DNA of 64,000 nt from Minisyncoccia bacterium (GCA_046598345.1 JBKJIT010000001.1:108251-172250); one strand, 5' to 3'; counted from the first letter of the stretch, positions 9,995 to 55,642 are shown. Program-made: numbers and translations. Notes: generated by a model not told the origin, from the sequence alone.

Positions 9995-10007
9995 AGGAAC
10001 ACCAATA

Positions 10008-10040
10008 CGCCCCGCGGCCTTCAGGCAGCGGGGCGGTTTC
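10008..10040 (+). terminator. rho-independent terminator
   Basis: cgccccgc ggccttcaggca gcggggcg gtttctg. A TATACT -10-like hexamer follows, ahead of the 10056 start. Confidence 0.6.
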
Positions 10041-10055
10041 TGTTATACTTTCAAT

Positions 10056-13015: not shown

Positions 13016-14177
13016 ACGCGTACTCGTTTTTTCTACTGACGATCATCTCTATCCTGCAGGAGGAGCAGAGCAGGCGTTTGGAAATATTAGTGAACGCATG
13101 CCCGACGTGGAATTTGATCTCATTTGTGCAAAGCTCCGAAAAGGAGTAAAAGGGTTTGAGCGCGTAAAAAACGTTAACATCTACCGCATGGGATTTGGTA
13201 TGCCCATAATCGACAGCATCGTTCTCGCTCTCTTTGGACACTTTTGTGCCTACAAACTTATGCGCACGCATACGTATGATCTCATATGGTCAATCATGGC
13301 ATCCTATGGAGCATTTGCTGCAGTGCGTGTAAAAAAGAAAACACACATTCCATTTTTGCTCACCCTCCAAGAGGGAGATGCATTCGAACATATTTATGCC
13401 CGCGTAAAATATGTTCGAAAGTCATTTAATGAAATTTTTCAATTGGCTGACGGGTTACAGGCCATTTCAAAGTATTTGCTTACGTGGGGTAAGGAGATGG
13501 GGTTTCGTGGCGCGGATGCAAAAGTAATTCCGAATGGAGTTGACGTTGACGTGTACCTTCGAGAGTACTCTCTCGAAGAGATTGCACGTGTACGCAATGC
13601 ATTTGGGTTCGAGGCCGGTTCAACGATTCTCATTACGAGCTCTCGCCTTGAAAAGAAAAATGGGGTTGCTGATGTAATTACAGCACTCTCAAAACTTCCA
13701 CCCAAGGTATGTTTTGTAATTTGCGGGAGCGGTTCACTCGAATCAGAACTGAAAGCGCAGGTGAAGCAACTCGACCTCTCCTCTCGAGTAACATTCTTAG
13801 GTTTTGTAGACCCAAGCGAGCTACCACTTCTCATGAAAGCTTCCGATATTTTTATTCGTCCATCGCTAACCGAAGGTTTGGGCATAGCATTTTTAGAGGG
13901 AATGGCCGCGATTGGAATTATTGTTGGAACACCGGTGGGTGGTATACCTGATTTCCTTACAGATGGAAAGACGGGATTTATGGTTACTGTAGAAGATCCA
14001 GACAGTATTAAAATGGTGATAGAAAAGATTATGAGCTTAAGCGAGTCAGAGAAGGGTCTGGTTCGCAGGGAAGCGCAGTCCGTAATTCGTGAGGTATATA
14101 ATTGGGACATTGTGACACGTCACATGCAAGAGCTTTTTGATGATATAACTAGGTCTCATGAGCGCACTCATTCTTGA
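13008..14177 (+). CDS. glycosyltransferase family 4 (GT-B)
   Basis: Start ATGGTTAA overlaps the upstream stop. C-terminal GT4 signature SLTEGLGIAFLEGMAAIGIIVGTPVGGIPDFLTDGKTGFMV. Confidence 0.8.
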   Translation: MVKRVLVFSTDDHLYPAGGAEQAFGNISERMPDVEFDLICAKLRKGVKGFERVKNVNIYRMGFGMPIIDSIVLALFGHFCAYKLMRTHTYDLIWSIMASYGAFAAVRVKKKTHIPFLLTLQEGDAFEHIYARVKYVRKSFNEIFQLADGLQAISKYLLTWGKEMGFRGADAKVIPNGVDVDVYLREYSLEEIARVRNAFGFEAGSTILITSSRLEKKNGVADVITALSKLPPKVCFVICGSGSLESELKAQVKQLDLSSRVTFLGFVDPSELPLLMKASDIFIRPSLTEGLGIAFLEGMAAIGIIVGTPVGGIPDFLTDGKTGFMVTVEDPDSIKMVIEKIMSLSESEKGLVRREAQSVIREVYNWDIVTRHMQELFDDITRSHERTHS

Positions 14178-15354
14178 CGGAGAACTTAAAAGCGCACTTT
14201 CTGCAATTCGCTCGCTTGGAAAGCGTGGCATTACCGTGGTATCGGGTTCGCTCCGCGAAAGCGCAATGGGACTCCATTCAAAATGTACGAATGAGTCTTT
14301 CGTGTATCCGTCACCATATGTAGATCAAGAGGGATTTGTGGCCTCGGTGCGTGAAGCTGCCCGACGTATTGGTGATACACCAGTTGTATTCGCGTTCAGT
14401 GACGCAACGTGGCTATCACTCTACGCACATCGCGAGGTGCTGAAGGAGGACATGACGCTTGTATTTCCGAATGATGACGCGGTTGCTATTGCATTCGATA
14501 AGGCTGCGACGTATTCTCTCGCTCGCGTTTCTGGTGTCCCTACCATAACCTCGCACACCGCGGAACTTCCGAGCGAAGTTCCGTATCTCGCTGATACGCT
14601 CACGTTCCCGCTTGTGGTAAAGCCAAGACGAAGTGTTGTGTGGCGGGAAGGTCGCGGTGTCTTCGGGAGTGCCAGCTTTGTGCATGACAAAGGCGAATTA
14701 GTCAGAAAATTTTCAGAACTCAAAGATGCTTGGGGTGAAGCACCGCTCATTCAAGACCTCCTTGTGGGTGAAGAGTACGGAGTTGAGATGATTGCGTCTG
14801 AAGGTAAACCACTTGCTATCGTGACACACCACCGACTTCGGTCACTCTCACCTACGGGCGGCGCATCGGTGCTCAAGGAAACGCTGGGGCAGGGGATTCT
14901 TCGGGAAACACTTGAGGCGCATGCGTTAACACTCATTCAAAAGATCTCGTGGAGTGGACCTATTATGGTTGAGTTTAAAGTTAATAGCGATACGAGAGAG
15001 CCGAAACTCATGGAAATAAATGGACGTTTCTGGGGCTCCCTTCCACTTTCGATAGCGGCGGGAGTTGATATGCCGTACATCTACTATGCACTTGCGGAGG
15101 GGACACATAGTGATACGGAAGTAATTCGCGGTAAAGACGGGGTGACCACGCGACATTTCTTGGGAGATGTCATGCACCTCACGAGAGTACTCTGTACGCG
15201 AGATAAGTTGCGCCATCTACTCTACCCAGAGCGAAGCAAAGCAATCCGTGATTTCTGTATACTTCCGAAAGGAACGAAAAGTGATGTATGGTCGCTTCAG
15301 GATCCAAAACCCGCTATCATGGAGTTCATTGATGCAGTTAAAAAACGAACATGA
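14158..15354 (+). CDS. ATP-grasp domain ligase
   Basis: FPLVVKP, EYGVEM, MVEFKVNSDTREPKLMEINGRFWGS match ATP-grasp motifs of the CPSase/D-Ala-D-Ala ligase type. Confidence 0.7.
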   Translation: MSALILDGELKSALSAIRSLGKRGITVVSGSLRESAMGLHSKCTNESFVYPSPYVDQEGFVASVREAARRIGDTPVVFAFSDATWLSLYAHREVLKEDMTLVFPNDDAVAIAFDKAATYSLARVSGVPTITSHTAELPSEVPYLADTLTFPLVVKPRRSVVWREGRGVFGSASFVHDKGELVRKFSELKDAWGEAPLIQDLLVGEEYGVEMIASEGKPLAIVTHHRLRSLSPTGGASVLKETLGQGILRETLEAHALTLIQKISWSGPIMVEFKVNSDTREPKLMEINGRFWGSLPLSIAAGVDMPYIYYALAEGTHSDTEVIRGKDGVTTRHFLGDVMHLTRVLCTRDKLRHLLYPERSKAIRDFCILPKGTKSDVWSLQDPKPAIMEFIDAVKKRT

Positions 15355-16154
15355 CCGTCACCGCAATTCTACATACTCATTCAACGTATTCGTACGATGC
15401 GAAGCTTTCGCTTAGGGATCTTAAAGCTCTCCTCGTCACGCGTGGGGTACAGGTTGCGTGCATGACTGAACACACGGATGAAATGACGCATGAGAGCGCG
15501 GCGGCGTTTGTGCGGGAATGCGAAATATTATCCGACGATTCGTTTTTATTCATTCCTGGTTTTGAGGTGCCGACATATAACCATGCGCACATTCTTATGA
15601 TTGGTATGCGAGAATTTCTTGGAAACTATGCAAGGAATTTGGAGGAACTCCGACCTTGGGCAGAACGAGCTGCGTTTGTTGTCCTTGCGCACCCGGTGCG
15701 AAATGATTTCTTGGTTGACGACGGACTCCTTAGAATGATTGATGGGCTTGAGGTATGGAACCAACAGTATGACGGCAAACGTGTGCCGCGCACCCATTCA
15801 CTTACGCTCTACGAAAAACTTCGCGCAAGAAAGCCAGAACTTCACGCAACGGGTGGCGTTGATTTACATAGGAAGGAGCACGCTGGGGCGCCCCACATTA
15901 CGCTTGAAGTTGAAAGTCTTAGAGAGTCGCACGTGCTTGAGAAACTAAAGGTAGGTGCATATACGGTGAATTCAAAGGAGACTTCGTTTTTTGGTACGCT
16001 TCCTAATCCTGGAATGTTGAAACGCGCTCACCGAGTGGAGAGTTTCATTTCAGTAACTATTATCGTGCTTGGCAAAACGGTAAACAAAACGCTGGCCGTC
16101 GTTGGAATTACGTTACCTAAATCACTGAAGGAGCTTGTTCGGAGGCGAGTGTAG
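15351..16154 (+). CDS. PHP-domain metal-dependent phosphoesterase
   Basis: N-terminal LHTHSTYSYDAK and downstream MTEHTD / FIPGFEV histidine/aspartate motifs of the PHP fold. Confidence 0.65.
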   Translation: MTVTAILHTHSTYSYDAKLSLRDLKALLVTRGVQVACMTEHTDEMTHESAAAFVRECEILSDDSFLFIPGFEVPTYNHAHILMIGMREFLGNYARNLEELRPWAERAAFVVLAHPVRNDFLVDDGLLRMIDGLEVWNQQYDGKRVPRTHSLTLYEKLRARKPELHATGGVDLHRKEHAGAPHITLEVESLRESHVLEKLKVGAYTVNSKETSFFGTLPNPGMLKRAHRVESFISVTIIVLGKTVNKTLAVVGITLPKSLKELVRRRV

Positions 16155-17130
16155 TGATGTCTTTCATTGATGCGCTCCCCATGCCATATTTTTCTTTGAG
16201 CATTTCAAAGTGTTCAAGAATTTCTTCAAGGTTTCTAAAATTTTCTTTTTGGTTTGTGCCCACATTGTGTGGATGCCACCAGAGGTGAAATATTTCACCG
16301 CACTTTGCTGCGTGCGTCATGCTGTCTTTTATTCGTTTCATACGCAGAGATTCAAAAGGTGAGAGAAATTTATTCCAGGGTCGCAAAAAACGGCTCGCTT
16401 TAATGTCGACAGGAAACGGAGGTGATTCTTCTGGAAGTGCATATGTGTGATGTCCACTTATATTTAGGTAGTGGTCGAGAAGACGAAGACCCCGAATAAA
16501 AAGAGTTTGCTCACTATCTTTCCTCGGGGCGTACAGAAAATGTGTTTCGTTTCCACGATACGCATGGATTCCATTTCTTTTGCACGTGCGCAGTGCCTCG
16601 TCGCTCGGCTGATTGCGCGGGAAGACCATTGATTCGGTTGTGACACCGTATGTCTCAGAGATTTTTTTGTGAGCCTCTAAATCCGCTTCAAAGACGTTCG
16701 GTGGGTTGTCGTGTCCGTCCATGCAGTAAAAATGCGAGAAGGTATGGTTGGCAATTTCTTGTCCCGGAGTCGCTAAGATTTTTTCAACAAGGGAAGATCC
16801 AAAATGATATGGATCAGATTTTTCATCGTCGCCAATTTCAGTCGTGTCGAGATGGTGGTAGGCGGAAACACGCTCGTCTTCATATGTTGGCCAGAGTTCA
16901 TGCGGGGGAAGCACGCCATACAGCTCTTCCTTATTTCGTGCCATGAGCATGCCGAGGGTTGCCCACGTGGCGTGGATGTTGTGTGATTTAAAAAGTTCGA
17001 GCATCCGGGGAATTGCCGTCTGTTCTCCGAGTACATGTGGGCCGTATTCCTTAAGTGAGACCTTATCAAACATGCCCCAGAAAAGCTCAAAATCGAGCGA
17101 TATGACGAGATATCCCGGTTTGTGATCCAT
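16117..17130 (-). CDS. polysaccharide deacetylase family protein (CE4/NodB-like)
   Basis: LVISLDFELFWG N-terminus and ANHTFSHF histidine motif. Convergent with the PHP gene. Confidence 0.6.
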   Translation of the reverse strand: MDHKPGYLVISLDFELFWGMFDKVSLKEYGPHVLGEQTAIPRMLELFKSHNIHATWATLGMLMARNKEELYGVLPPHELWPTYEDERVSAYHHLDTTEIGDDEKSDPYHFGSSLVEKILATPGQEIANHTFSHFYCMDGHDNPPNVFEADLEAHKKISETYGVTTESMVFPRNQPSDEALRTCKRNGIHAYRGNETHFLYAPRKDSEQTLFIRGLRLLDHYLNISGHHTYALPEESPPFPVDIKASRFLRPWNKFLSPFESLRMKRIKDSMTHAAKCGEIFHLWWHPHNVGTNQKENFRNLEEILEHFEMLKEKYGMGSASMKDITTLASEQAPSVI

Positions 17131-17601: not shown

Positions 17602-17715
17602 ATTAGCGGAATTATTTCCGACCATTCAGTGATGGTGTAAACATTTTGGAGAAATAAATAAATCCTAAGGTAAAAAAGCATTCATGCTTAAGTCTGCCAA
17701 TTGTAGCGTTTGTAT

Positions 17716-18828
17716 ATGAAAATCCTTATCGCGACAGGTTTATATCCTCCCGACATCGGAGGTCCTGCAACGCATACACTCTTTCTTGAAAAAAATCTTC
17801 CGACGCATGGCATTTCGTACGCTGTGGTTCCCTTTGGTTCCGTACGGAAATATCCTCCGCTCATTCGTCATCTCGTATATGCAGTAAAACTCCTTCGAGC
17901 GGGACGCTCATGTGATGCGCTCTATGCGCTCGATACGGTTTCAGTGGGTTTTCCTTGCATGCTCGCTGCAATACTCCTCCGCAAACCGTTCTATCTTCGT
18001 GTTCCGGGTGATTATGCGTGGGAGCAGGGCCAGCAGCGATGGGGACTTATGGAAACGCTCGATGCGTACCTTGAGGAACGAAAGCACGCGCCGTTTTTTG
18101 TTCGACTTTTTGCATTCATCCAAACGCGTGTGGCGCGTAGAGCGACGCATGTCATTGTGCCAAGTGACTACATGAAACGTGTGGTGACATCATGGGGTAT
18201 TGATGCTCATCGCATTACACGCGTCTACAGTGCTCTTCAATCTCTTGAAGTCCGTGAACCCAAAGAAGTGCTTCGGAAGCAATTTGGTTTAAAAGGATTT
18301 GTGGTCATGACCGCTGCGCGCCTCGTGCCGTGGAAGGGGGTGAGCGCGCTCATTGATGCAATTGCGTCCCTCAGAAAAGAAGGATTCGATGTATCGCTCC
18401 AGGTCGTGGGTGATGGTCCACTCCGAGAGACGCTGAGGAAACGTGCTTGGGAAAAGGGGATTGCAGAGTGTGTGTACTTTCAGGGCGCGGTGTCCCATGA
18501 CCTCCTTGCAAAGTATCTCAAAGCGTCTGATGCGTTTGTGCTTAACACCTCCTATGAGGGAATGTCACATCAACTTCTCGAAGTCATGAGTCTCGGGATT
18601 CCCGTTATTACGACGCCTGTGGGGGGAAACGAAGAACTCATTACCCATATGCAGGAGGGAATTCTTGTACCCTTTAATGATACAGAAAAAATTAAAGAAG
18701 CACTTAAGGAACTATGCGAAAGTGAACAACTTCGGAGCGCACTCGTGGCCCACGCGCGACTCCGACTCTCTGCTTTTTCTGAAGACACGAGCATACGAGA
18801 GATTGTGTCCGTCTTAAAAAACGGATAA
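17716..18828 (+). CDS. glycosyltransferase family 4
   Basis: MKILIATGLYPPDIGGPATH N-terminus. C-terminal EGMSHQLLEVMSLGIPVITTPVGGNEE. Confidence 0.8.
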   Translation: MKILIATGLYPPDIGGPATHTLFLEKNLPTHGISYAVVPFGSVRKYPPLIRHLVYAVKLLRAGRSCDALYALDTVSVGFPCMLAAILLRKPFYLRVPGDYAWEQGQQRWGLMETLDAYLEERKHAPFFVRLFAFIQTRVARRATHVIVPSDYMKRVVTSWGIDAHRITRVYSALQSLEVREPKEVLRKQFGLKGFVVMTAARLVPWKGVSALIDAIASLRKEGFDVSLQVVGDGPLRETLRKRAWEKGIAECVYFQGAVSHDLLAKYLKASDAFVLNTSYEGMSHQLLEVMSLGIPVITTPVGGNEELITHMQEGILVPFNDTEKIKEALKELCESEQLRSALVAHARLRLSAFSEDTSIREIVSVLKNG

Positions 18829-18887
18829 TTTTTAAAATGCGTTCAGGCTTGTAAAGATGCTGTAATAAGATATCGTACTCTCTATCT

Positions 18888-20030
18888 ATGCATGTTGTAA
18901 GCTTAGCGCTTGATCCAAAAACACTCGACCCTGAAAGCGTCGTGGCGTTTCGAAACCGTGCGTACGGGAGACTCACCGAGCACTATTCGATTGTTGTTCC
19001 ATCTCCCGCTACGATGGTGGTGCATCTTTCAGATAAGACTACGGTGTACGGCGTGGGTGGTTTTCATAAAGTGGTGCAGCTTATTTCTATGTACCGGCGC
19101 GCGAGGGCCCTCATTCGTGCAGGGAAGTGTGATGTGATTACCAGCCAGGATATGTACTTCCTCGGTCTCCTCGGTCTTTTCCTCGCGCGCCGGTACCACC
19201 TCGGCTTAGAAGTGCAGGTGCTTGGCATTGAAAAACTCACGCCGTTCCGAAAACGGATTGCGCTCTTTGTGCTACATCGCGCCGGAGTGGTGCGCGCACT
19301 CAGTGATCGTCTTAAAGATCGCCTCATTACTGAGTTTAATGTCCCTGAGAAACTCATTAACGTGGTCACGATCTATGTGGACGTACAGAAGCTTGGTCTT
19401 GATGTGCGATCCTTGAAAGGTAAAGACACAGAGGAGTTTGAACGTCTCACGCGTGCATTCCGCGAACAGTATGGAAGCCGGATGAATTTCCTCTCCGTTT
19501 CAAGGCTCGTGCCGATTAAGCGAATTGAGCTTCAGCTCGAAGCCATCGCTGCACTCAAACAGCGATTTCCGCAGGTAATGCTCCACATTGTAGGGGATGG
19601 TCCAGATGAAGTACGCATCAAGACACTCGTCTCAAACCTTGGACTCGAAAAGGAAGTACTATTCCATGGGTATCAAACCGGATACGCGCTCGGTATGTTC
19701 TACATTGAGTGTGATTGTTTTCTTCTTACTTCCGATTACGAAGGATGGGGGATGGTCATTATTGAGGCTGCGACAGCAGGACTTCCTATCATCATGACTG
19801 ATGTCGGGTGTGCACGTGAATTCATTCGGGATGAGAAAAGCGGGCTCGTCATTCCACCTCAGGATGGGCAGGCGCTCATAGGCGCAATGGAGCGAGTTAT
19901 TACAGACCCGGAATTGAGACAGAAACTCTCGGTCGGCGCAATACAGGCGCTTGCGCAACTACCGAGCTTTGATACGATTCTCATGCGTTATAAAGAAAAT
20001 TGGGAGGTTGCCTTGTCCAGACGGATGTAA
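18888..20030 (+). CDS. glycosyltransferase family 4
   Basis: EGWGMVIIEAATAGLPIIMTDVGCAREFI E-x7-E region. Confidence 0.8.
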   Translation: MHVVSLALDPKTLDPESVVAFRNRAYGRLTEHYSIVVPSPATMVVHLSDKTTVYGVGGFHKVVQLISMYRRARALIRAGKCDVITSQDMYFLGLLGLFLARRYHLGLEVQVLGIEKLTPFRKRIALFVLHRAGVVRALSDRLKDRLITEFNVPEKLINVVTIYVDVQKLGLDVRSLKGKDTEEFERLTRAFREQYGSRMNFLSVSRLVPIKRIELQLEAIAALKQRFPQVMLHIVGDGPDEVRIKTLVSNLGLEKEVLFHGYQTGYALGMFYIECDCFLLTSDYEGWGMVIIEAATAGLPIIMTDVGCAREFIRDEKSGLVIPPQDGQALIGAMERVITDPELRQKLSVGAIQALAQLPSFDTILMRYKENWEVALSRRM

Positions 20031-20039
20031 TTATTTTTT

Positions 20040-20975
20040 ATGAATATACTTATCACAGGAGGAGCAGGGTTTCAGGGAAGCCATCTCGCAGAACGCATGC
20101 TCGCAAAGGGACATTCAGTAACTATCCTCAATACCTTTTCTGATGAGAAAAAGCGCAACATCGCTTCATTCCAGGATAAGCTTAATGTCGTCTTTGGATC
20201 TATCACTGATCCAGTTCTCATTGAAAAGACCGTCCGTGGTCACGATGTGGTATTTCACCTCGCTGCGAATGTGAACGTTGATCACTCACTCTCTGATCCA
20301 AAGAGTTTTCTCGATGTGAACGTTATGGGAACGTTTAATATTTTGGAGCAGGTGCGGGCGCATGGCATCCGTATGATTCATGCATCAACGTGTGAAGTAT
20401 ACGGCGATGGGCATGACCTAAAGGACGGGGAACTGCTCGATGAGACCGCAGAGCTTAAGCCGAAGAGTCCATACGCGGCATCGAAGGCTGCAGCTGACCG
20501 TCTCTGCTACGCGTATCACGCGTCATTTGGGGTAAATGTAACTATCGTGCGCCCGTTTAATATTTTTGGGGAACGACAAAAGAGCGGAACGTTCGGAGCG
20601 CTCATTCCAATTCTCGTACGTAAGGCGATGTCGGGAGAAAAGCTTACGGTTTTTGGCGATGGTACTGCAACGCGTGATTATCTGCACGTCAGTGATCTCG
20701 TGAGTGCGTATGAGCTCGTAATGGATACATCAGGACTCGAAGGAAAAAGTATTAACTTTGCGAGCGGAAAGAACACATCCGTAAAAGAAATTGCAGAATA
20801 TATTGGAAAGAAGTTTAGTGCAGAAGTGAAGCATGGTCCTGCGCGTCCCGGAGAGGTGACGCGTTTCCCTGCAGATATTTCGTACGCAGAGAGTATTGGA
20901 TTTGCTCCACAAATTTCAATATGGAATGGCATCGACCGGTACATTGAATGGGCGAAAAAAGAAGCTCAAGTGTAA
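20040..20975 (+). CDS. NAD-dependent epimerase/dehydratase (dTDP-glucose 4,6-dehydratase / UDP-sugar epimerase family)
   Basis: ITGGAGFQGSHL. Catalytic YAASK (YxxxK) motif. 311 aa. Confidence 0.85.
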   Translation: MNILITGGAGFQGSHLAERMLAKGHSVTILNTFSDEKKRNIASFQDKLNVVFGSITDPVLIEKTVRGHDVVFHLAANVNVDHSLSDPKSFLDVNVMGTFNILEQVRAHGIRMIHASTCEVYGDGHDLKDGELLDETAELKPKSPYAASKAAADRLCYAYHASFGVNVTIVRPFNIFGERQKSGTFGALIPILVRKAMSGEKLTVFGDGTATRDYLHVSDLVSAYELVMDTSGLEGKSINFASGKNTSVKEIAEYIGKKFSAEVKHGPARPGEVTRFPADISYAESIGFAPQISIWNGIDRYIEWAKKEAQV

Positions 20976-21007
20976 GTAGGGTGAGTGGGTAGCTTTGAAT
21001 AGTCGCC

Positions 21008-22402
21008 TTGAACAGACGGTATACTATCTGTGTGCCAAAACGAGATCTCTCACAATTCATTCCACCTATTGATCCTGCAAAACATGCAGCGGGTGTTTTA
21101 AATTCAGTGTTAGAAAAAACGGGAACACAATCTCAATCGCCAGCGAGTGAAGACACTCTGGCACGTATGGAGAATGCATGGGGTCATATTGAGGCAGGAA
21201 AGGCGCTGACGGGAGGATCAGTTTTGGAGCGAAGTGCTTCCGGCCGTTCGCTCCGACTTCTCATTCTTTCGCGCGATCTTGCGCTCTTTGAAGGAGGAAG
21301 TCTTGCTCAGAATCAGCTTCTCGAACTTGCCGAGCGTTTTTCAGAAGTTCATGTCATCGTACTCTCAGTGACCGGGACGGGATCCAAAGTCCCTCTGCGC
21401 ATTCAGAATCAAGTATGGGTGTACCCGACGTACTCAAAGTACTGGTGGAAAACAGGCTTCGATGCGTATCGCATCGCGGAGGAGCAGCTATCATTTGCGC
21501 AGGGTTTTCGAGCAGATCTCGTCATTGCACACGATCCGTTTGAATCTGGAGTGGCCGCGCATTTCATTGCAAAAAAGTACGAGCGGCCACTCCAGATTCA
21601 TGTGCGCGAAGATTTTTACGATCCGCATTTTAAGCTTCTGGATGAACACAACAGTCTAAGGGTGTTTGTGGCGTCCTATGCACTCAGTCACGCAGAATCG
21701 ATTCGGACAAAGACAGCGTATATTCGTGAACGCTTGATCTCGGAGGATCCTCACCTGGAAAAGCGCACAGAAGTACTTCCAAACTATATTAATTTAAAAG
21801 CTTGGCGAGATGCCGTCCCAGCGTTCAGTCTGGAGATGCGCTATCCTCAATTTAAATTCATCATCGTTCATATTTCACAGATGACTAAAGCATCGCACAC
21901 GCAAGAGGTTATTAACGGTACGCTTCGACTCCTCAGTCAGTACCCTATGATGGGACTCGTCATTGTTGGCTCGGGGCCACTTCGTGCTACGTACGAGAAA
22001 TATGTTACTGAACTCAAGATGACGCGTCAGATTATTTTTGAACCCATGCCTGACGAAGTGCTCTCGCATTTAAAAACGGCGCACGTATGTATCCACCTCT
22101 CCATTGACGACGCGGAATCACACATCCCACTCATGGCGGCTGCGGCAAAGATCCCCATGATCATCAATGCAGAAGCAGGTAAGGAAATATTTAAAGACAA
22201 TGAATCTGCATTTCTCTGCGGAGCGACAGACGTAGAGTGTGTGGGGGCAAGGCTTAATACATTTCTTAATCAAAATGCGCTTCGGACAAGTTTTGGTGAT
22301 GAGGCAGAAAATGCTATCTTTACCCATATTGAGCAAGATTTTGAGTCATATATGGACGCCTATGCGGGAAGCATAGAACGTTCCTTTGCGCAGGCGAGTT
22401 AG
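21008..22402 (+). CDS. GT-B fold glycosyltransferase (GT4-like, divergent); start uncertain
   Basis: Two Rossmann-like halves (LRLLILSRDLALFEGGS ... GLVIVGSGP ... IPMIINAEAGKE). Low similarity to the canonical motif. Confidence 0.5.
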   Translation: MNRRYTICVPKRDLSQFIPPIDPAKHAAGVLNSVLEKTGTQSQSPASEDTLARMENAWGHIEAGKALTGGSVLERSASGRSLRLLILSRDLALFEGGSLAQNQLLELAERFSEVHVIVLSVTGTGSKVPLRIQNQVWVYPTYSKYWWKTGFDAYRIAEEQLSFAQGFRADLVIAHDPFESGVAAHFIAKKYERPLQIHVREDFYDPHFKLLDEHNSLRVFVASYALSHAESIRTKTAYIRERLISEDPHLEKRTEVLPNYINLKAWRDAVPAFSLEMRYPQFKFIIVHISQMTKASHTQEVINGTLRLLSQYPMMGLVIVGSGPLRATYEKYVTELKMTRQIIFEPMPDEVLSHLKTAHVCIHLSIDDAESHIPLMAAAAKIPMIINAEAGKEIFKDNESAFLCGATDVECVGARLNTFLNQNALRTSFGDEAENAIFTHIEQDFESYMDAYAGSIERSFAQAS

Positions 22403-22428
22403 GGTAAAGGCAGTAATGAGAATTTTGG

Positions 22429-23439
22429 ATGCGACTACTCATCACCACTCAGACAGTTGATACAGAAGACCCTATTCTTGGTTTTTTTCATGGGTGGCTG
22501 ATTGAACTCTCTAAGCATGTTGAACATATTCATGTGGTGTGTCTTCGTAAAGGAGCCTACACCCTTCCGCAAAACATCACCGTTCACTCGTTGGGAAAAG
22601 AAGATCGACAAAATCGGCTCGCGTACGTTCTTACCTTTTATAAAAATGTGTGGAAGCTCCGCAACGAATACGACATTGTGTTTTCTCATATGAATCCCCA
22701 CTACATTGTTCTTGCAGGATTATTTTGGCTCATAACCGGCAAACGAATCTTTCTCTGGAGAAATCATGCGAAGATGAACATGAAGAGTCGTATCGCGGCG
22801 TGGTTTTCAAGACGTGTGTTTTACACTTCTCCGTATGCATGTATGCGGCGATTCCGGCATTCTATGCAGATGCCGGTGGGAATTGATACGGAATTATTTA
22901 AGCCACAGCCAGAAATCGTGCGCGAAGAGGGAACAGTCCTTTTTCTCGGCCGTCTTTCTCCAGTGAAGCGTCCTGAACTCATGATGGAAAGCACAAAGCA
23001 TGTGCCGGAGCTTCGTATACATGTGTACGGGGACGAGCCCGGCGGCTCGCATACGTATGGTGACGCACTGAGGGCACAGAGTGGGGAAAACACTTCCTTT
23101 TTTCCTTCGCTTCCAAATTATAAAACTCCGAAAGTGTACGCTGCTCACGATATCTATGTAAATCTTACTCCAGAAGGAAGTATGGATAAAACGGTTCTTG
23201 AGGCCGCAGCATGCGGCACACTCGTGCTCGTTTCAAATCGCTCGTTCCAGGATGTATTACCACCGGAATGTACTCTCGCCCATGACCGACCGGAAGATAT
23301 TGGAGCAGCACTTCGAACACTCATACATCTTGCCCCAGAGAAAAAAAATAGCTATCGTGTAACCTTAAACCAAATGGTTCTTGAGTCCCATTCTCTAAAG
23401 AAACTTGTGAACACCCTCATTAGTCAGTTTGCATCATGA
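22429..23439 (+). CDS. glycosyltransferase (GT4/GT1-like)
   Basis: TVLFLGRLSPVKRPELMM and LEAAACGTLVLVSN GT-B C-terminal half. Confidence 0.6.
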   Translation: MRLLITTQTVDTEDPILGFFHGWLIELSKHVEHIHVVCLRKGAYTLPQNITVHSLGKEDRQNRLAYVLTFYKNVWKLRNEYDIVFSHMNPHYIVLAGLFWLITGKRIFLWRNHAKMNMKSRIAAWFSRRVFYTSPYACMRRFRHSMQMPVGIDTELFKPQPEIVREEGTVLFLGRLSPVKRPELMMESTKHVPELRIHVYGDEPGGSHTYGDALRAQSGENTSFFPSLPNYKTPKVYAAHDIYVNLTPEGSMDKTVLEAAACGTLVLVSNRSFQDVLPPECTLAHDRPEDIGAALRTLIHLAPEKKNSYRVTLNQMVLESHSLKKLVNTLISQFAS

Positions 23440-24278
23440 CACATATCGATTTCATAGGTATCGGAGCGCAAAAATCAGCCACATCGTGGGTGTATGCCTG
23501 TCTCTACGAACATCCGCAGATTTGTGCACCGATTAAGGAAATACACTTCTTTAGTCGCCCTCGCTTTAGCGAGGGAAAAGAGTGGTATGAAGATCATTTT
23601 AAACGCTGTGGAGAAGGAAAACTGTGTGGGGAATTTTCGACCTCGTATCTGTATTCGAAAGACGCGCCCCTGCGCATTCATTCTTTGTACCCGAACGCTA
23701 AACTTATTGCCATCCTTAGGAATCCTATTGATCGCGCATACTCGCACTATCGAAATGCAATCAAGGCGGGAGAAATCAAGGAATCAGAATCGTTTGAATC
23801 GTTCAGCGCACGGGAAGTGAGTGTGCTGGAGCAGGGTCTCTTCACACAGCAGCTCACGCGGTATTTCGAACTTTTCCCGCGCGAGCAAGTCCTCATTCTT
23901 ATTCAGGAAGATATTGAAAAAAGTCCGGAGGCATTTATGGAACGGATTTTTACGTTTCTAGGAGTCGACTCTACTTTTGTGCCAACTATGCTCCATACGC
24001 AAGTAAATGTTGGACGCATCCCAAAACGTGTGTTTATTGACCGCATGATGACGCACACTGCAGAATTTCTCCGAAAGATTGGATTTGATCGCTTTGTGTG
24101 GATTATTCGGAAACTTGGAATGCCCGACTTTGTGCGTTCATTTAATACTAAGGAGGGCAAGAAAGAAGGTAAGCCTCCCTATGATCGCGGAGCACTCGCA
24201 GCGTATTTTCGAGATGATGTGCGCGGCCTCACAGAATTTTTGGGGCGTGATATGGTAAAGGAATGGAACCTCGAGTAA
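23436..24278 (+). CDS. sulfotransferase family protein (PAPS-dependent)
   Basis: 5'-PSB motif GAQKSATSW near the N-terminus and 3'-PB-like ILRNPIDRAYSHY. 280 aa. Confidence 0.7.
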   Translation: MTHIDFIGIGAQKSATSWVYACLYEHPQICAPIKEIHFFSRPRFSEGKEWYEDHFKRCGEGKLCGEFSTSYLYSKDAPLRIHSLYPNAKLIAILRNPIDRAYSHYRNAIKAGEIKESESFESFSAREVSVLEQGLFTQQLTRYFELFPREQVLILIQEDIEKSPEAFMERIFTFLGVDSTFVPTMLHTQVNVGRIPKRVFIDRMMTHTAEFLRKIGFDRFVWIIRKLGMPDFVRSFNTKEGKKEGKPPYDRGALAAYFRDDVRGLTEFLGRDMVKEWNLE

Positions 24279-25087
24279 CACATACGCTACGCGATACCCT
24301 CGTAAGTCTCCTGGGGATTTTGGGTATTACAACTCTCTATAACCTGAGAGAAAAACGCCGCGGACCCCTCGTGCGTGTCCTCGTCTTTCATGATGTTACC
24401 GACGCCGTTTGGTTTGATTCTGTCATGAAGGAACTCAGTCTGCATGTTCATTTTCTCAGCCCGAGCGCCTTTGAAGCGGGTAATTTTATGTCGGATCGTG
24501 TAAATGTACTCGTAACCTTCGATGATGGGTACGCATCATGGGTAGAGATCTGTCTTTCGATTCTTGCTAAGTATAAATGCACTGCGGTATTTCTTGTAAA
24601 TTCAGGACTCCTCGATTCAAAAGACAAGAATACGAAAGCGACGTACGTACGTGAGCGCCTCCTCCTTTCCACAATGCGAGAGGTACTGACGTGGGATGGG
24701 CTGAGGGCGCTCGCTCACGAGGGACATACGATTGGGGGACACACGAGAACGCATGCGCGGCTCGGAGAGTTACAGGATGATGTGGCACTAGAAGAAATTC
24801 GAGGTGATAAAGCACGCGTTGAAGCAGAGCTTGACTCAACGCTCACCTGGTTTGCGTATCCCTTTGGAAATCCGGGAGACTACACGAAGCGTACCGCCGC
24901 GCTCGTTAGGGAATCGGGGTACCAGTATGCGTGCACAACTGAGGCGGCATTTGTGTCACCGGGAGGAGAGAGGATGGTGATCCCGCGTCTCTGTTTGCCA
25001 GACGGCCTTTCTCCACGCGCCGTTCGCTCGTGGGTGAGTGGAGGATATGATGTGCTTCGTAAACTAAAAAAACTATGTGTGGAATAA
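24263..25087 (+). CDS. polysaccharide deacetylase (CE4/NodB homology domain)
   Basis: VLVTFDDGYASW (TFDDG motif) and HTRTH histidine motif. Confidence 0.75.
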   Translation: MEPRVTHTLRDTLVSLLGILGITTLYNLREKRRGPLVRVLVFHDVTDAVWFDSVMKELSLHVHFLSPSAFEAGNFMSDRVNVLVTFDDGYASWVEICLSILAKYKCTAVFLVNSGLLDSKDKNTKATYVRERLLLSTMREVLTWDGLRALAHEGHTIGGHTRTHARLGELQDDVALEEIRGDKARVEAELDSTLTWFAYPFGNPGDYTKRTAALVRESGYQYACTTEAAFVSPGGERMVIPRLCLPDGLSPRAVRSWVSGGYDVLRKLKKLCVE

Positions 25088-26907
25088 ACGGTATTACGAC
25101 AAACGACCCGGCTCGCGTAGATCGAATGAACCAAGCAATTATTCATCGTGGTCCAGACGGTTCGCGGATTTGGGAAGGGAACGGGATTACTCTCGGCCAC
25201 AATCGACTTGCGATTATTGATCTTTCCGACCTTGCAATTCAGCCCATGGCAGGAATTGATGGTCGATACGAGATCGTTTTTAACGGAGAAATCTATAATT
25301 ATCGTGAACTCCGTGCACAGCTTGCATCTAAATACACTTTCAAAACGGAAAGTGATACGGAAGTGCTCATCACTGCGTACCACGAGTGGGGCGAAGCGAT
25401 GTTTGCACGCCTTCGGGGTATGTTCGCGTTTGGTCTCTGGGATAATCGGGAGAAGACGCTTACACTTGTGCGCGACCATATGGGCATTAAACCCCTCTAT
25501 TACACTCAAAAAGAGGGTGTGCTTGCGTTTTCGTCTGAAATACCTGGGTTGCTACAGGGGATAGAAAATCGTGTCCTCAATCGGCGGCGGGTTGGAATGT
25601 ACCTCTCAATGGAATATGTGCCAGGTCCCAAAACGCTCATTGAAGGAGTGTATAAGCTTCAACCCGGACATCTACTCGTGTATGCGCGCGGAGCATATAC
25701 AGTTCGCTCGTATCTTGACGCACTTCCAAAAAAACGTGTGGTCACGGAGGAGGAGATCTACCGTACGATTGATGAAGGAGTGCACCGGCAAATGGTGTCC
25801 GATCGTCCTATCGGCGCATACCTCTCTGGAGGGTTTGATTCTAGTATCGTGGTGCATCACATGGCGAAGCATTCACCGCACACTAAAACGTATTCCGTCG
25901 ATTTTGAAGCAGTGCGGGGTGAGGAGGAGGACAGTGTCAAATTTAATGCCGATGCAGCTCTTGCGAAGCAGACTGCCGCCTTTTATGGCACTGACCATAA
26001 GACTCTTACAATCGGGCTTCAAGACGTGCGCGAGAACATGGAACGTGTGCTTTCGTCCATGAATGAACCGGTCGCAAATTCCACTGCGATCACACAATTT
26101 CTCCTCAGTGATTTTGTACGAAAGGACGGTGTCATTGTTGTCTTAGGCGGCGATGGAGGAGATGAGCTCTTTGCTGGTTACACGCGACACCGACTTGCGA
26201 TGGGTGCGTATATGTACCAGCAACTGCCACACTTCCTTCAACGACTCGGTGGAAGCCTAAGTGCACGTGTTGGAAAGCTTTCCACGCCGTTCTACACGCC
26301 GCTTCACCGCACACTAATGATTAAGGACGAAAAGAAAATTGCTCCCTTTCTTACGAGTGGACTTTCCATTAATCATGAGGTGGAGACTTACTTCAATGCG
26401 CTCTACGAGGACCCGCAGTTTAATGGAGTGCACCCCCTTGATGTATTTATGAATGTCGATCGGAGAACGTGGCTCGCTGATGAGTGTTTCGTGCGTTCCG
26501 ATTACACATCTATGGCGCACGGCATTGAACTCCGAGTGCCACTCCTTGATCTTGATATTATCAAGCTCGCGGACCAACTCTCAATCTGGAAGAAGGTGCT
26601 ACCGCATGAGGGAAAGCGGATTATTCGGAGTACGTATAAACCGTATTTACCAGCCCATCTCTACAACCAACCTAAACGTGGTTGGCTCAGCCCAGCGGCA
26701 AAATGGTTTCGGGACCCCGAGATAAGTTCGTTTGCTCGCGAAGTATTTTCATCGGAGTATTACTCAGGTCTTGACGGTCTATTCAACTGGGAAAGTGTAC
26801 AGTCTATGCTGAATACACATATTGAAAAGAGAGGATATTATCTGTATCCACTTTGGAATATTCTTGTCCTGCAGGTCTGGGCACGGAAGCACAACATATT
26901 TACATGA
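25075..26907 (+). CDS. asparagine synthase (glutamine-hydrolysing) family amidotransferase
   Basis: N-terminal MCGI nucleophile. SGGFDSS PP-loop. 610 aa. Confidence 0.85.
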   Translation: MCGINGITTNDPARVDRMNQAIIHRGPDGSRIWEGNGITLGHNRLAIIDLSDLAIQPMAGIDGRYEIVFNGEIYNYRELRAQLASKYTFKTESDTEVLITAYHEWGEAMFARLRGMFAFGLWDNREKTLTLVRDHMGIKPLYYTQKEGVLAFSSEIPGLLQGIENRVLNRRRVGMYLSMEYVPGPKTLIEGVYKLQPGHLLVYARGAYTVRSYLDALPKKRVVTEEEIYRTIDEGVHRQMVSDRPIGAYLSGGFDSSIVVHHMAKHSPHTKTYSVDFEAVRGEEEDSVKFNADAALAKQTAAFYGTDHKTLTIGLQDVRENMERVLSSMNEPVANSTAITQFLLSDFVRKDGVIVVLGGDGGDELFAGYTRHRLAMGAYMYQQLPHFLQRLGGSLSARVGKLSTPFYTPLHRTLMIKDEKKIAPFLTSGLSINHEVETYFNALYEDPQFNGVHPLDVFMNVDRRTWLADECFVRSDYTSMAHGIELRVPLLDLDIIKLADQLSIWKKVLPHEGKRIIRSTYKPYLPAHLYNQPKRGWLSPAAKWFRDPEISSFAREVFSSEYYSGLDGLFNWESVQSMLNTHIEKRGYYLYPLWNILVLQVWARKHNIFT

Positions 26908-28056: not shown

Positions 28057-28061
28057 ATTGC

Positions 28062-29533: not shown

Positions 29534-29701
29534 TATGTGTTTTTATAAAAAATGATGAGCTGTACATTATTCAAGCCTTCAATCTTCATGAATCGTTTCA
29601 TATGGTACTACGCAGCCAACACATTATCAATTTAAAACCTTTGTTTCGAATACATCTCGCAAAGAATATATGCGAATAGACATTTCCTTTCTGTTACATA
29701 C

Positions 29702-30289: not shown

Positions 30290-31126
30290 ATGAAAATTGG
30301 ATTCATCGGACAAGGGTACGTTGGTAAAAACATAGCGAACGATTTTGAAGCACGTGGCCATGAAGTAGTCAGGTACTCTCTGGAGCCGGAATATATTTTG
30401 AATATGGATAAAATCCAGACGTGCGATATTGTCTTTATTGCTGTTCCCACACCCACAACCCCGGATGGTTTTGATTATTCAATAATTGAACAATCACTTC
30501 CGCTATGTAGGGAAGGGGCCAAAGTTGTTCTCAAATCAACACTGCTTCCAGGTACAACGGAAAAACTACAAAAGCTGTTTCCCCAGCTTTGCATACTTTT
30601 TTCGCCTGAATTTTTGTGTGAAGCGACGGCTGCTCATGATGCGGCAAACCCAGTCTTCAATATCATTGGGAGTCCTACGAACACAGCACTTCACGAAGAT
30701 GCTGCCAAAGAAATTATGAGCATTCTTCCTAAAGCTCAGCATTCCTTTCAAACGACCGCAACAGCAGCGGAGCTTTTTAAATATGTACACAACATTCAGG
30801 GGTATATGCGGGTCATTCTTTCGAACCTTTTTTATGACACCGCCACAACACTTGGCGTTGAGTGGGAAGACGTCCGTCGTATGATGGATGTGGACCCTAT
30901 GATGTCGCCGTACTACAACTCCCCGCTCCATAAGAGTGGTCGTGGCGCAGGAGGGCATTGTTTTATTAAAGACATGGCAGCATTTAGGATGCTCTATGAA
31001 AAGGCACTCCCTGAGGATGCTCTCGGTATTGAGGTATTCAAAGCCCTTGAAAGTAAGAACCTGGAGCTTTTAGCCTCCACTAACAAGGACCAGGGTCTTG
31101 TGAACGGGGTGTATGGACAAGATTAA
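30290..31126 (+). CDS. UDP-glucose/GDP-mannose dehydrogenase-family protein, short form (278 aa) lacking the C-terminal UDP-binding domain
   Basis: N-terminal MKIGFIGQGYVG Rossmann. Catalytic-Cys motif GGHCFIKD near residue 230. The ORF stops about 45 aa later, whereas full-length Ugd is about 430 aa. Confidence 0.65.
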   Translation: MKIGFIGQGYVGKNIANDFEARGHEVVRYSLEPEYILNMDKIQTCDIVFIAVPTPTTPDGFDYSIIEQSLPLCREGAKVVLKSTLLPGTTEKLQKLFPQLCILFSPEFLCEATAAHDAANPVFNIIGSPTNTALHEDAAKEIMSILPKAQHSFQTTATAAELFKYVHNIQGYMRVILSNLFYDTATTLGVEWEDVRRMMDVDPMMSPYYNSPLHKSGRGAGGHCFIKDMAAFRMLYEKALPEDALGIEVFKALESKNLELLASTNKDQGLVNGVYGQD

Positions 31127-41962: not shown

Positions 41963-42015
41963 ATTTCATGTATTATATATTAAACTTTCTAAAAGGAGGT
42001 TTGGTTAAAGAAAAT

Positions 42016-53843: not shown

Positions 53844-53902
53844 TGGATTGTGCGCTTGACGCAGGAAGTCTAGCAGCTATACTTACGCATGAGTCCACGT
53901 TG

Positions 53903-55622: not shown

Positions 55623-55642
55623 TTTCGTTTACGCTAAACAAA

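What the first reader, a model, noticed from the sequence alone, without database searches (positions are those of the whole stretch)
25075..26907. Two AsnB-type glutamine amidotransferases plus an ATP-grasp ligase in the cluster: predicted amidated or amino-acylated sugars
The cluster carries two full-length AsnB paralogs (25075..26907 and 40160..41962, both with MCGI N-terminus and SGGxDSS PP-loop) and an ATP-grasp enzyme (14158..15354). In known O-antigen and capsule loci, AsnB homologs amidate uronic acids (WbpS-like) and ATP-grasp enzymes attach amino acids to sugars. The adjacent CE4 deacetylases and PHP phosphoesterase fit a pathway that generates free amines then re-acylates them. The truncated Ugd-like dehydrogenase at 30290 would supply the uronic acid.
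Basis: inference. Interest (0 to 1): 0.6.

Follow-up and report, generated by a model that had tools for sequence, protein, structure and literature searches.

The report
AsnB-type amidotransferases in CPR glycan locus
Two asparagine-synthetase-like enzymes lie inside a large, conserved cell-surface sugar-polymer gene cluster of a small-genome Parcubacteria (CPR) bacterium, where they most likely turn acid groups on the polymer into amides rather than make asparagine, and one of them has an unusually rebuilt nitrogen-donor pocket.

Summary

The organism is a Parcubacteria/CPR bacterium. AsnB1 and AsnB2 share only 27% identity. Each forms its own CPR clade (bootstrap 100). Neither belongs to E. 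coli-type AsnB or to the WbpS/TIGR03108 family.

AsnB1 sits in a module found in 8 of 8 long contexts: GT4 x4, a heparan-sulfate-like sulfotransferase, CE4, then AsnB1, with CE4, PHP and ATP-grasp upstream. A 13-nt CE4/AsnB1 overlap recurs in 5 loci. This supports a glycan-modifying carboxylate amidotransferase, not housekeeping Asn synthesis. The acceptor is unknown.

AsnB2 is always paired with a GT8-like gene and usually lies near KpsF. It has lost two glutamine-anchoring residues (R49L in 119/119, E76Q in 118/119) and gained Arg53 (119/119).

The "truncated" Ugd is a conserved short form lacking the UDP-binding domain, and it accompanies AsnB1 in only 4 of 8 loci. Interest is moderate.

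The parts
25075..26907 (+). AsnB1: full-length class-II glutamine amidotransferase plus PP-loop synthetase, belonging to a CPR-specific clade
   Evidence: It keeps Cys1, R49, N74, G75, E76 and D98 and has SGGFDSS. TIGR01536 scores 410.6 (>267.1). The clade has bootstrap 100.
24263..25087 (+). CE4b NodB-type deacetylase whose stop overlaps the AsnB1 start by 13 nt
   Evidence: PF01522, 9e-21. TFDDGY and HTRTH motifs are present. The same 13-nt overlap occurs in L001, L003, L005 and L105.
23436..24278 (+). PAPS-type carbohydrate sulfotransferase, closest to the heparan-sulfate 3-OST/NST type
   Evidence: PF00685, 4e-18; 3RNL 5e-23, HS 3-OST 1.4e-18, NDST1 NST domain 9e-14. Found upstream of AsnB1 in 8 of 8 loci.
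17710..23439 (+). Four GT4 glycosyltransferases (17710-18828, 18888-20030, 21008-22402, 22429-23439) and an SDR epimerase (20040-20975) forming the core of module A
16117..17130 (-). CE4a: second, divergent polysaccharide deacetylase
   Evidence: PF01522, 4.9e-7. It is 50-69% identical in 6 related loci.
15351..16154 (+). PHP-like metallohydrolase whose start overlaps the ATP-grasp stop by 4 nt
   Evidence: PF02811 is below the gathering score; NF038032 scores 60.9 (<80). It is 60-64% identical in L001, L005, L090 and L105.
14158..15354 (+). ATP-grasp ligase of an uncharacterised subfamily
   Evidence: It shares 20 long contigs with AsnB1 orthologues.
30290..31126 (+). Short Ugd-like dehydrogenase with a Rossmann domain and a central domain carrying GGHCFIKD, but no UDP-binding domain
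40160..41962 (-). AsnB2: divergent AsnB paralogue with a remodelled glutamine pocket (R49L, V53R, E76Q)
39313..40149 (-). GT8-like protein with a DPD motif, the invariant downstream partner of AsnB2
   Evidence: It is immediately downstream of AsnB2 in 5 of 6 loci and within 3 kb in 6 of 6.
41968..44441 (+). KpsF/GutQ-family sugar-phosphate isomerase (41968-42975) and a conserved 489-aa protein with no family match (42972-44441), transcribed divergently from AsnB2
   Evidence: TIGR00393 scores 233 (>204). Also.
44559..45818 (-). Wzx-type flippase
   Evidence: 8 TM-like segments
48850..49602 (+). KdsB-type CMP-Kdo synthetase
   Evidence: TIGR00466 scores 208 (>155) and NF003952 scores 281 (>193).
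49675..51321 (+). Bifunctional ATP sulfurylase/APS kinase (PAPS supply)
51609..53843 (+). Wzy_C/O-antigen-ligase-like membrane protein with TPR repeats, marking the end of the locus
   Evidence: The same gene marks the locus end in L088 and L107.

Best explanation
The window carries a roughly 42-kb (12.1-53.8 kb) Wzx/Wzy-type surface-glycan locus of a Parcubacteria (CPR) bacterium. The two AsnB-like genes are glycan-tailoring amidotransferases, not asparagine synthetases.

AsnB1 has a complete class-II glutaminase site and a PP-loop adenylating site. It most likely hydrolyses glutamine, adenylates a carboxylate on a cytoplasmic nucleotide-linked or lipid-linked sugar intermediate, and converts it to a carboxamide. 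It works in fixed stoichiometry with the CE4 deacetylase and the PAPS-dependent sulfotransferase encoded just upstream. All three proteins lack predicted membrane segments by a hydropathy scan, and they use ATP, glutamine or PAPS. The modifications therefore precede Wzx flipping.

AsnB2 belongs to a separate module (GT8-like partner, KpsF, unknown 489-aa protein, near KdsB). It performs an analogous adenylation and amidation on a second acidic residue. Its nitrogen-donor pocket is rebuilt (R49L, V53R, E76Q).

What is shown: domain architecture, catalytic residues, clade structure and synteny. What is inferred: the reaction, the acceptor (a hexuronic acid, a Kdo-type acid, or an acid appended by the ATP-grasp) and the timing.
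For: - Family and catalytic residues.
- CPR origin and tight orthologue clades; bootstrap 100 for each clade.
- AsnB1 synteny: the GT4 x4, sulfotransferase, CE4, AsnB1 order holds in 8 of 8 long contexts at 50-74% identity.
- An identical 13-nt CE4/AsnB1 overlap occurs in 5 loci.
- 20 long contigs are shared between AsnB1 and ATP-grasp orthologues.
- AsnB2 is paired with the GT8-like gene in 6 of 6 loci.
- Some loci carry up to three AsnB paralogues in one glycan cluster.
- Neither protein is E. coli-type AsnB (bootstrap 0 for AsnB1+E. coli).
- The closest solved structure to AsnB1 is TsnB9 (7YLZ), which amidates a non-amino-acid carboxylate.
- Precedents: WbpS, WbqG and PGN_1234 make uronamides in glycan loci (PMC7468200, PMC6025236).
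- gatB is present, so a tRNA-dependent Asn route is possible.
- KdsB and KpsF pass their curated cut-offs, so an acidic ulosonic sugar is plausibly present.
Against: - AsnB1 passes the NCBI 'asparagine synthase' equivalog TIGR01536 (410.6 > 267.1).
- It keeps every synthetase-site residue compared, including the acidic pocket that binds the aspartate amino group in ASNS (D351, E352, D384; E348 is conservatively Asp, PMC6748925). Asn synthesis therefore cannot be excluded from sequence.
- Neither protein reaches the WbpS-family model cut-off.
- No canonical UDP-sugar 6-dehydrogenase is present. The short Ugd-like gene lacks a UDP-binding domain and is absent from within 10 kb in 4 of 8 AsnB1 loci.
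- KdsA was not seen in the window.
- No acceptor-specific residues could be identified.
- No biochemical data exist for any CPR member.
Confidence: 0.6

Rival explanations
1. AsnB1 (and/or AsnB2) is a genuine glutamine-dependent asparagine synthetase that supplies free Asn. Its position in the glycan locus would be incidental or regulatory.
For: TIGR01536 is passed by AsnB1 and missed by AsnB2 by only 1.7 bits. All catalytic and Asp-pocket residues are retained in AsnB1. The B. subtilis AsnB, AsnH and AsnO proteins, of this broad family, all complement Asn auxotrophy (PMC8554201).
Against: AsnB1 sits in glycan context in 8 of 8 loci, with a conserved translational overlap to a CE4. Two or three paralogues occur per glycan locus. 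E. coli-type membership fails. AsnB2 lacks two glutamine-anchoring residues. gatB is present.
Confidence: 0.12
2. One paralogue amidates the peptidoglycan stem peptide (the mDAP epsilon-carboxyl or a similar group), as B. subtilis and Listeria AsnB and Corynebacterium LtsA do.
For: The whole locus lies between murD/murC (3.5-6.4 kb) and murB (54.2 kb). The same flanks occur in L088 and L107. AsnB-family enzymes are proven mDAP amidotransferases (PMC5485061, PMC8554201).
Against: The immediate, translationally coupled partners are a sulfotransferase, CE4 and GT4s for AsnB1 and a GT8-like gene for AsnB2, not mur genes. The L107 version of the locus lacks AsnB1 altogether. In the NJ tree the AsnB1 clade does not sit with the Bacillales/Actinobacteria sequences, but those could not be labelled as mDAP-type.
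Confidence: 0.1
3. The carboxylate amidated by AsnB1 is not a sugar acid. It is the free carboxyl of an amino or organic acid that the ATP-grasp ligase first attaches to a CE4-deacetylated amino sugar. This would be analogous to the ATP-grasp (Ngg) plus AsnB-like (AsnO) pair in N-acetylglutaminylglutamine amide synthesis.
For: ATP-grasp and AsnB1 orthologues co-occur on 20 long contigs. Two CE4 genes sit in the module. The short Ugd-like gene is absent from half of the loci. The Ngg/AsnO precedent is described in PMC8070244. TIGR03104 aligns to AsnB1 end to end (351 bits).
Against: TIGR03104 is below its cut-off (351 < 570). The ATP-grasp lies 10 kb from AsnB1, not adjacent. The ATP-grasp substrate is unknown, and structure search shows only generic similarity to the biotin-carboxylase/CPS fold.
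Confidence: 0.15

Closest known systems
WbpS (P. aeruginosa O6), WbqG (E. coli O121) and PGN_1234 (P. gingivalis): uronamide-forming AsnB homologues of the eps_aminotran_1/TIGR03108 family
   Same: They are full-length AsnB architecture with Cys1, encoded inside surface-glycan loci, and convert a sugar carboxylate to a carboxamide (PMC7468200, PMC6025236). This is the best functional analogue for AsnB1.
   Different: AsnB1 scores 412 bits and AsnB2 199 bits against TIGR03108 (cut-off 817). The partner genes here are a sulfotransferase and CE4, not WbpO/WbpP-type enzymes.
E. coli AsnB and human ASNS (housekeeping asparagine synthetase)
   Same: The fold is the same, as are Cys1, the PP-loop, K429/K449, and D351/E352/D384/R387. 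AsnB1 keeps the whole glutamine-binding network.
   Different: Identity is about 31%, NF006949 is failed, E348 is Asp, and the TTIR aspartate-loop region is replaced. The genomic context is a glycan locus.
B. subtilis and Listeria AsnB and Corynebacterium LtsA (peptidoglycan mDAP amidotransferases)
   Same: They belong to the same broad TIGR01536-type family and show that 'asparagine synthase' annotations hide envelope-modifying amidotransferases (PMC5485061, PMC8554201).
   Different: There is no direct linkage to mur genes, and the proteins here form distinct CPR clades.
TsnB9 hydroxyamidotransferase (PDB 7YLZ)
   Same: It is the closest solved structure to AsnB1 by sequence (2.2e-47). It is an AsnB-like enzyme acting on a non-amino-acid carboxylate.
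   Different: It belongs to a secondary-metabolite pathway and uses a different donor. It aligns only over residues 18-378.
C. jejuni Cj1438C amidoligase plus Cj1435 phosphatase (glucuronamide decoration of capsule)
   Same: It is an ATP-dependent ligase followed by a phosphatase that decorates a sugar carboxylate after its incorporation (PMC11800397). Here the ATP-grasp and PHP-like genes overlap by 4 nt.
   Different: Cj1438C is a TupA-like ATP-grasp (PF14305) unrelated at the profile level to this ATP-grasp (hhalign probability 0.1%). Cj1435 is a HAD enzyme, not PHP.
Heparan sulfate NDST and 3-O-sulfotransferases
   Same: The sulfotransferase next to CE4b is closest, among functionally characterised solved structures, to HS 3-OST (1.4e-18) and the NDST1 NST domain (9e-14). 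A deacetylase next to a sulfotransferase mirrors the NDST logic.
   Different: The proteins here are separate. The deacetylase is CE4, unlike the NDST deacetylase domain. The substrate is unknown.

Membership tests
AsnB family (class-II/Ntn glutamine amidotransferase fused to a PP-loop synthetase) | N-terminal nucleophile Cys1 directly after the initiator Met | tested here: met
   Both proteins begin MCGI. Cys1 is present in all orthologues with a complete N-terminus.
AsnB family (class-II/Ntn glutamine amidotransferase fused to a PP-loop synthetase) | Glutamine-recognition network R49, V53, N74, G75, E76, D98 in E. coli numbering (human R48, V52, N74, G75, E76, D96; PMC6748925) | tested here: not met
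   AsnB1 keeps all of these residues (117/117). AsnB2 does not: R49L in 119/119, V/I53R in 119/119, E76Q in 118/119. N74, G75 and D98 are kept.
AsnB family (class-II/Ntn glutamine amidotransferase fused to a PP-loop synthetase) | PP-loop SGGxDSS and the catalytic lysines K429 and K449 | tested here: met
   SGGFDSS in AsnB1 and SGGLDSS in AsnB2. K429 and K449 are invariant in both clades.
NCBIfam TIGR01536 asparagine synthase (glutamine-hydrolyzing) | Score above the curated cut-off of 267.1 bits | tested here: met
   AsnB1 scores 410.6 and passes. AsnB2 scores 265.4, just below the cut-off. The model is broad: every outgroup protein tested passes it.
E. coli-type asparagine synthetase B (NF006949) | Score above the 499-bit cut-off and clustering with E. 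coli AsnB | tested here: not met
   Scores are 270.8 and 158.5 bits. AsnB1+E. coli has bootstrap 0; AsnB2+E. coli has bootstrap 41, which is unresolved.
WbpS/WbqG uronamide amidotransferases (TIGR03108 eps_aminotran_1) | Score above the 816.9-bit cut-off and placement in that clade | tested here: not met
   Scores are 412.1 and 199.3 bits. The true member L018 scores 1073, and its clade (bootstrap 100) excludes both CPR clades.
WbpS/WbqG uronamide amidotransferases (TIGR03108 eps_aminotran_1) | Encoded in a surface-glycan locus together with a nucleotide-sugar 6-dehydrogenase that makes the uronic acid | tested here: inconclusive
   The glycan-locus context is met in 8 of 8 loci. The dehydrogenase partner is only the short Ugd-like form without a UDP-binding domain, present in 4 of 8 loci.
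mDAP-amidating AsnB/LtsA | Extra loop characteristic of mDAP-amidating homologues and clustering with B. subtilis AsnB or LtsA (PMC8554201) | not tested
   No reference sequences were obtainable. The Geobacillus homologue L016 could not be labelled, because its context is ETF, FixC and a two-component system rather than the asnB locus.
   Both proteins carry the GATase_6/7 domain. No such model appears among the NCBIfam hits at E<=0.01.
NAGGN amidotransferase AsnO (TIGR03104) | Score above the 570.1-bit cut-off | tested here: not met
   Scores are 351.3 and 170.3 bits.
ATP-grasp superfamily | Three-domain ATP-grasp fold | tested here: met
   The AF2 model has pLDDT 92.8. Foldseek matches biotin carboxylase and CPS at E about 1e-17, TM about 0.6. 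PF15632 matches at 5.8e-13.
TupA-like ATP-grasp sugar-acid amidoligases (Cj1438C) | Match to PF14305 or profile similarity to Cj1438C | tested here: not met
   Cj1438C matches PF14305 at 1.3e-37. The window protein does not match it. hhalign probability is 0.14%.
UDP-glucose/GDP-mannose dehydrogenase family | N-terminal NAD-binding domain, central domain with the catalytic Cys, and C-terminal UDP-binding domain | tested here: not met
   The N-terminal and central domains and the GGHCFIKD motif are present. The C-terminal domain is absent, TIGR03026 scores 122 (<189.8), and the short length is conserved in orthologues.
PHP phosphoesterase | Pfam PF02811 above its gathering score | tested here: inconclusive
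   PF02811 scores 23.9 (<26.4). NF038032 CehA/McbA metallohydrolase scores 60.9 (<80). The pAp-phosphatase model matches only at E=1.4e-3. There are no PDB sequence relatives.

The most novel reading that the evidence does not exclude
The AsnB2 clade is a previously undescribed kind of class-II amidotransferase. It keeps the Cys1 nucleophile and oxyanion hole but has moved the substrate-anchoring arginine (R49L plus V53R) and neutralised E76. It would therefore draw nitrogen from a donor other than free L-glutamine, or bind glutamine in a new way. With its invariant GT8-like partner it would amidate a Kdo-type acidic sugar. Together with AsnB1, a heparan-sulfate-like sulfotransferase/CE4 pair and an ATP-grasp/PHP pair, it would build a sulfated, amidated, glycosaminoglycan-like surface polymer. 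That polymer is encoded in a hypervariable island at a fixed chromosomal site in Parcubacteria, and could be the surface these episymbionts present to their hosts.
Probability: 0.2. Interest if true: 0.7.

Novelty: new variant of a known kind. Interest (0 to 1): 0.45.

Why it matters
CPR/Parcubacteria have genomes of about 1 Mb and almost no biosynthetic capacity. This one nonetheless devotes about 42 kb to a surface glycan with sulfation, deacetylation, methylation and at least two amidation enzymes. No paper in the searched library describes this.

If the inferred chemistry holds, these organisms make a charge-tuned polymer in which sulfate is added and carboxylates are neutralised. The locus is built like an O-antigen or capsule island, with conserved flanks and variable content. 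That would make it a concrete candidate for host attachment or phage and host recognition.

Practically, the result warns that 'asparagine synthase' calls in CPR metabolic reconstructions should not be counted as amino-acid biosynthesis. The AsnB2 pocket substitutions give a testable entry point into donor specificity of Ntn amidotransferases.

Tried and rejected
- The genome-contig scan with AsnB1 was saturated by the generic FNGEIYNY motif. It returned only 30-37% identical outgroups, which were used as a reference set rather than as context.
- The metagenome scan with the sulfotransferase returned only one close locus (L090). The other twelve were distant sulfotransferases without AsnB.
- I tried to read acceptor specificity from synthetase-site residues. 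D351, E352, D384, K429 and K449 are conserved across all clades, so they do not discriminate. The E. coli TTIR loop is replaced in every non-E. coli-type protein.
- I tried to label a 'mDAP-type' clade through the Geobacillus locus L016. Its context is not the asnB locus, so no label was given.
- Real WbpS, WbqG, LtsA and B. subtilis AsnB sequences could not be obtained. The TIGR03108 HMM and one bona fide member served as proxy.
- PDB sequence searches for the PHP-like protein and the 489-aa protein found nothing useful.
- A single-sequence AlphaFold model of the 489-aa protein was unusable (pLDDT 34).
- Promoter and terminator scans were at or near shuffle background.
- Foldseek for the ATP-grasp gave only generic biotin-carboxylase/CPS matches with no substrate clue.
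- I considered and rejected lasso-peptide or beta-lactam-type cyclases, because Cys1 is retained and NF033535 scores far below its cut-off.
Full report
**Observation.** The two ORFs exist as described. 25075..26907(+) gives a 610-aa protein beginning MCGING with LSGGFDSS. 40160..41962(-) gives a 600-aa protein beginning MCGIIG with LSGGLDSS. Pfam finds Asn_synthase plus GATase_6/7 in both, at 2.6e-70 and 1.1e-45. Both align end to end with many orthologues, so they are intact genes and not chance ORFs. The ATP-grasp (14158..15354), the two CE4 deacetylases (16117..17130 minus strand; 24263..25087) and gatB (60502..61935) are also confirmed. The PHP assignment is weak, below Pfam's gathering score.

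**What surrounds them.** Pfam and NCBIfam annotation of about 50 ORFs shows one continuous surface-glycan locus from about 12.1 to 53.8 kb. It contains:
- about ten GT4 glycosyltransferases and several SDR epimerases;
- five methyltransferases;
- a sulfotransferase and a bifunctional PAPS synthase;
- KpsF and a KdsB that passes its equivalog cut-off;
- a Wzx flippase and a Wzy_C/TPR membrane protein.

The flanks are murD/murC plus a VirD4-like ATPase on one side and murB/secA on the other. The nearest named relatives are Candidatus Kaiserbacteria, Pacebacteria/Paceibacterota, Minisyncoccia and Patescibacteria. The organism is therefore a Parcubacteria-type CPR bacterium.

**The two AsnBs are deep paralogues in separate, conserved modules.** They share only 27% identity. 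AsnB1 orthologues (50-74% identity) were examined in seven further long contexts: L001, L003, L005, L090, L103, L104 and L105. All show GT4 x4, sulfotransferase, CE4, AsnB1, and most have CE4a, PHP and the ATP-grasp upstream. The CE4 stop overlaps the AsnB1 start by exactly 13 nt in the window and in L001, L003, L005 and L105. Twenty contigs of 18 kb or more are shared between the AsnB1 and ATP-grasp orthologue lists.

AsnB2 orthologues (44-60% identity) in L086, L087, L088, L106 and L107 are followed by a 283-285-aa GT8-like gene. It is immediately adjacent in 5 of 6 loci and within 3 kb in 6 of 6. In 5 of 6 loci (all but L107) a family-less protein of about 490 aa lies upstream and a KpsF gene lies nearby. 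AsnB1 and AsnB2 share only 4 long contigs, so the modules assort independently. Some loci carry a third AsnB paralogue. L107 has the same flanking genes but a locus of only about 17 kb without module A. The locus therefore behaves like a variable glycan island at a fixed site.

**Family placement.**
- AsnB1 passes the broad TIGR01536 model (410.6 > 267.1). AsnB2 just misses it (265.4).
- Neither reaches E. coli-type AsnB (271 and 158 against 499), the WbpS-containing TIGR03108 (412 and 199 against 817) or the NAGGN amidotransferase model.
- I built an NJ tree of 123 sequences: the CPR clades, 78 diverse outgroups, E. coli AsnB, and two extra CPR paralogues.
- In it, AsnB1 and AsnB2 each form clades with bootstrap 100.
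- A bona fide TIGR03108 clade (L018 scores 1073 bits) is separate, also with bootstrap 100.
- AsnB1+E. coli has bootstrap 0. AsnB2's deeper position is unresolved.

Membership of the WbpS family is not met either.

**Active sites (E. coli numbering).** AsnB1 keeps Cys1, R49, N74, G75, E76 and D98. This is the glutamine-recognition network described for human ASNS (PMC6748925). It also keeps the PP-loop, D351, E352, D384, R387, K429 and K449. E348 is Asp. It is thus a competent glutamine-dependent, adenylate-forming amidotransferase.

AsnB2 keeps Cys1, N74, G75, D98 and the synthetase residues. However, it shows R49L in 119/119 orthologues, E76Q in 118/119 and V/I53R in 119/119. All 197 other sequences in the alignment keep R49 and E76. 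Three of the six network residues are therefore changed, with the arginine apparently relocated. This is the most unusual sequence feature found. Its consequence (a different donor, a new binding mode, or use of ammonia only) is inferred and not shown.

**Acceptor.** Sequence does not reveal it, because the synthetase-pocket residues are conserved across all clades. The closest solved relative of AsnB1 is TsnB9 (7YLZ), which amidates a non-amino-acid carboxylate, ahead of E. coli AsnB. Candidate carboxylates are:
- a hexuronic acid;
- a Kdo-type acid, since KdsB and KpsF pass their cut-offs, though KdsA was not seen;
- an acid attached by the ATP-grasp.

The Ugd-like gene keeps the Rossmann motif and GGHCFIKD. 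It lacks the UDP-binding domain, and its orthologues are equally short (277-285 aa). It is a conserved short form, present beside AsnB1 in only 4 of 8 loci. It therefore cannot be assumed to supply UDP-uronic acid.

**Accessory genes.** The ATP-grasp fold is confirmed (pLDDT 92.8; Foldseek matches biotin carboxylase and CPS). It is unrelated to the TupA-like Cj1438C amidoligase. The 4-nt overlap between the ATP-grasp and the PHP-like gene recalls the C. jejuni ligase-plus-phosphatase pair (PMC11800397), but this is only an analogy. Among functionally characterised solved structures, the sulfotransferase is closest to heparan-sulfate 3-O-sulfotransferases and the NDST1 N-sulfotransferase domain; an unnamed sulfotransferase structure, 3RNL, scores higher. 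It sits directly beside a canonical NodB-type CE4, which suggests deacetylation coupled to sulfation. CE4b, the sulfotransferase and AsnB1 lack predicted membrane segments by a hydropathy scan. Together with their ATP, glutamine and PAPS requirements, this places the tailoring in the cytoplasm before Wzx export. This is an inference.

**Verdict.** The most likely reading is that both proteins are glycan-tailoring carboxylate amidotransferases. They work like WbpS, WbqG and PGN_1234 (PMC7468200, PMC6025236) but form new CPR-specific clades, and AsnB2 is a pocket variant. The rivals are promiscuous or true Asn synthesis, peptidoglycan stem-peptide amidation (PMC5485061, PMC8554201), and amidation of an ATP-grasp-appended acid as in AsnO/Ngg (PMC8070244). 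None of these is excluded. I found no paper in the searched library linking CPR bacteria with these enzymes. Interest is moderate. AsnB homologues in glycan loci are a known kind. The conserved CPR module, its heparan-like sulfation partners and the rebuilt AsnB2 donor site are new and testable.

Noticed in passing
window 23436-25087, with 49675-51321: The sulfotransferase is closest, among functionally characterised solved structures, to heparan-sulfate 3-O-sulfotransferases and the NDST1 N-sulfotransferase domain. It is translationally coupled to a canonical CE4 deacetylase, and a PAPS synthase lies in the same locus. This is an NDST-like deacetylate-and-sulfate arrangement in a CPR bacterium.
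   Followed up: partly
window 30290-31126; L001 12708-13565; L003 11846-12697; L105 11870-12703: The 'truncated' Ugd is a conserved family of 277-285 aa. It has the Rossmann domain and the catalytic-Cys motif GGHCFIKD but no UDP-binding domain. In L001 (16618-18252) a related module is fused to a methyltransferase.
   Followed up: partly
window 9957-11966 and 51609-58267; L107 1-21836; L088 1-2899: The glycan locus is bracketed by the same genes in other genomes: a Mur ligase plus a VirD4-like coupling ATPase on one side, and Wzy_C-TPR, murB and secA on the other. Its content and length differ, from about 17 kb in L107 to about 42 kb here. It is a variable island at a fixed site.
   Followed up: partly
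window 41968-42975 and 48850-49602: KpsF/GutQ-family isomerase and KdsB (CMP-Kdo synthetase) pass their curated cut-offs in an organism expected to lack LPS. No KdsA or NeuB-type synthase was seen in the window.
   Followed up: partly
window 42972-44441; L086 7500-8972; L087 7497-8981; L088 8462-9931; L106 1171-2634: A conserved protein of about 490 aa has no Pfam, NCBIfam or PDB match. It carries the invariant motif QHGHFTKYH and IDD, and is usually transcribed divergently from AsnB2. The single-sequence AlphaFold model failed (pLDDT 34).
   Followed up: partly
L086 18685-20535; L105 15489-17339; L088 16487-18313: Some related loci carry a third AsnB paralogue (608-616 aa) beside GT2/GT4 and methyltransferase genes. 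The L088 copy is sister to the AsnB1 clade (bootstrap 98).
   Followed up: partly
window 28062-29533 (minus strand): A GLF/amine-oxidase-like flavoprotein is split into two overlapping 250-aa ORFs in different frames. This may be a frameshift or a pseudogene. It lies in a PMT_2/GtrA-containing segment (26938-30151) that separates AsnB1 from the short Ugd-like gene, which is adjacent in other genomes.
   Followed up: no
window 28000-50000: GC content drops from about 0.46-0.50 (12-28 kb, module A) to about 0.36-0.43 (28-50 kb, including AsnB2). This is consistent with a variable or exchanged part of the locus.
   Followed up: no
L001 515-1096; L005 762-1334: In two related loci a PaaX_M-like gene of about 190 aa is inserted between the ATP-grasp and PHP-like genes. 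In the window those two genes overlap by 4 nt.
   Followed up: no
window 58246-58686: A small ORF matches the Phage_holin_4_2 family (2e-31) between secA and a VTT-domain protein.
   Followed up: no
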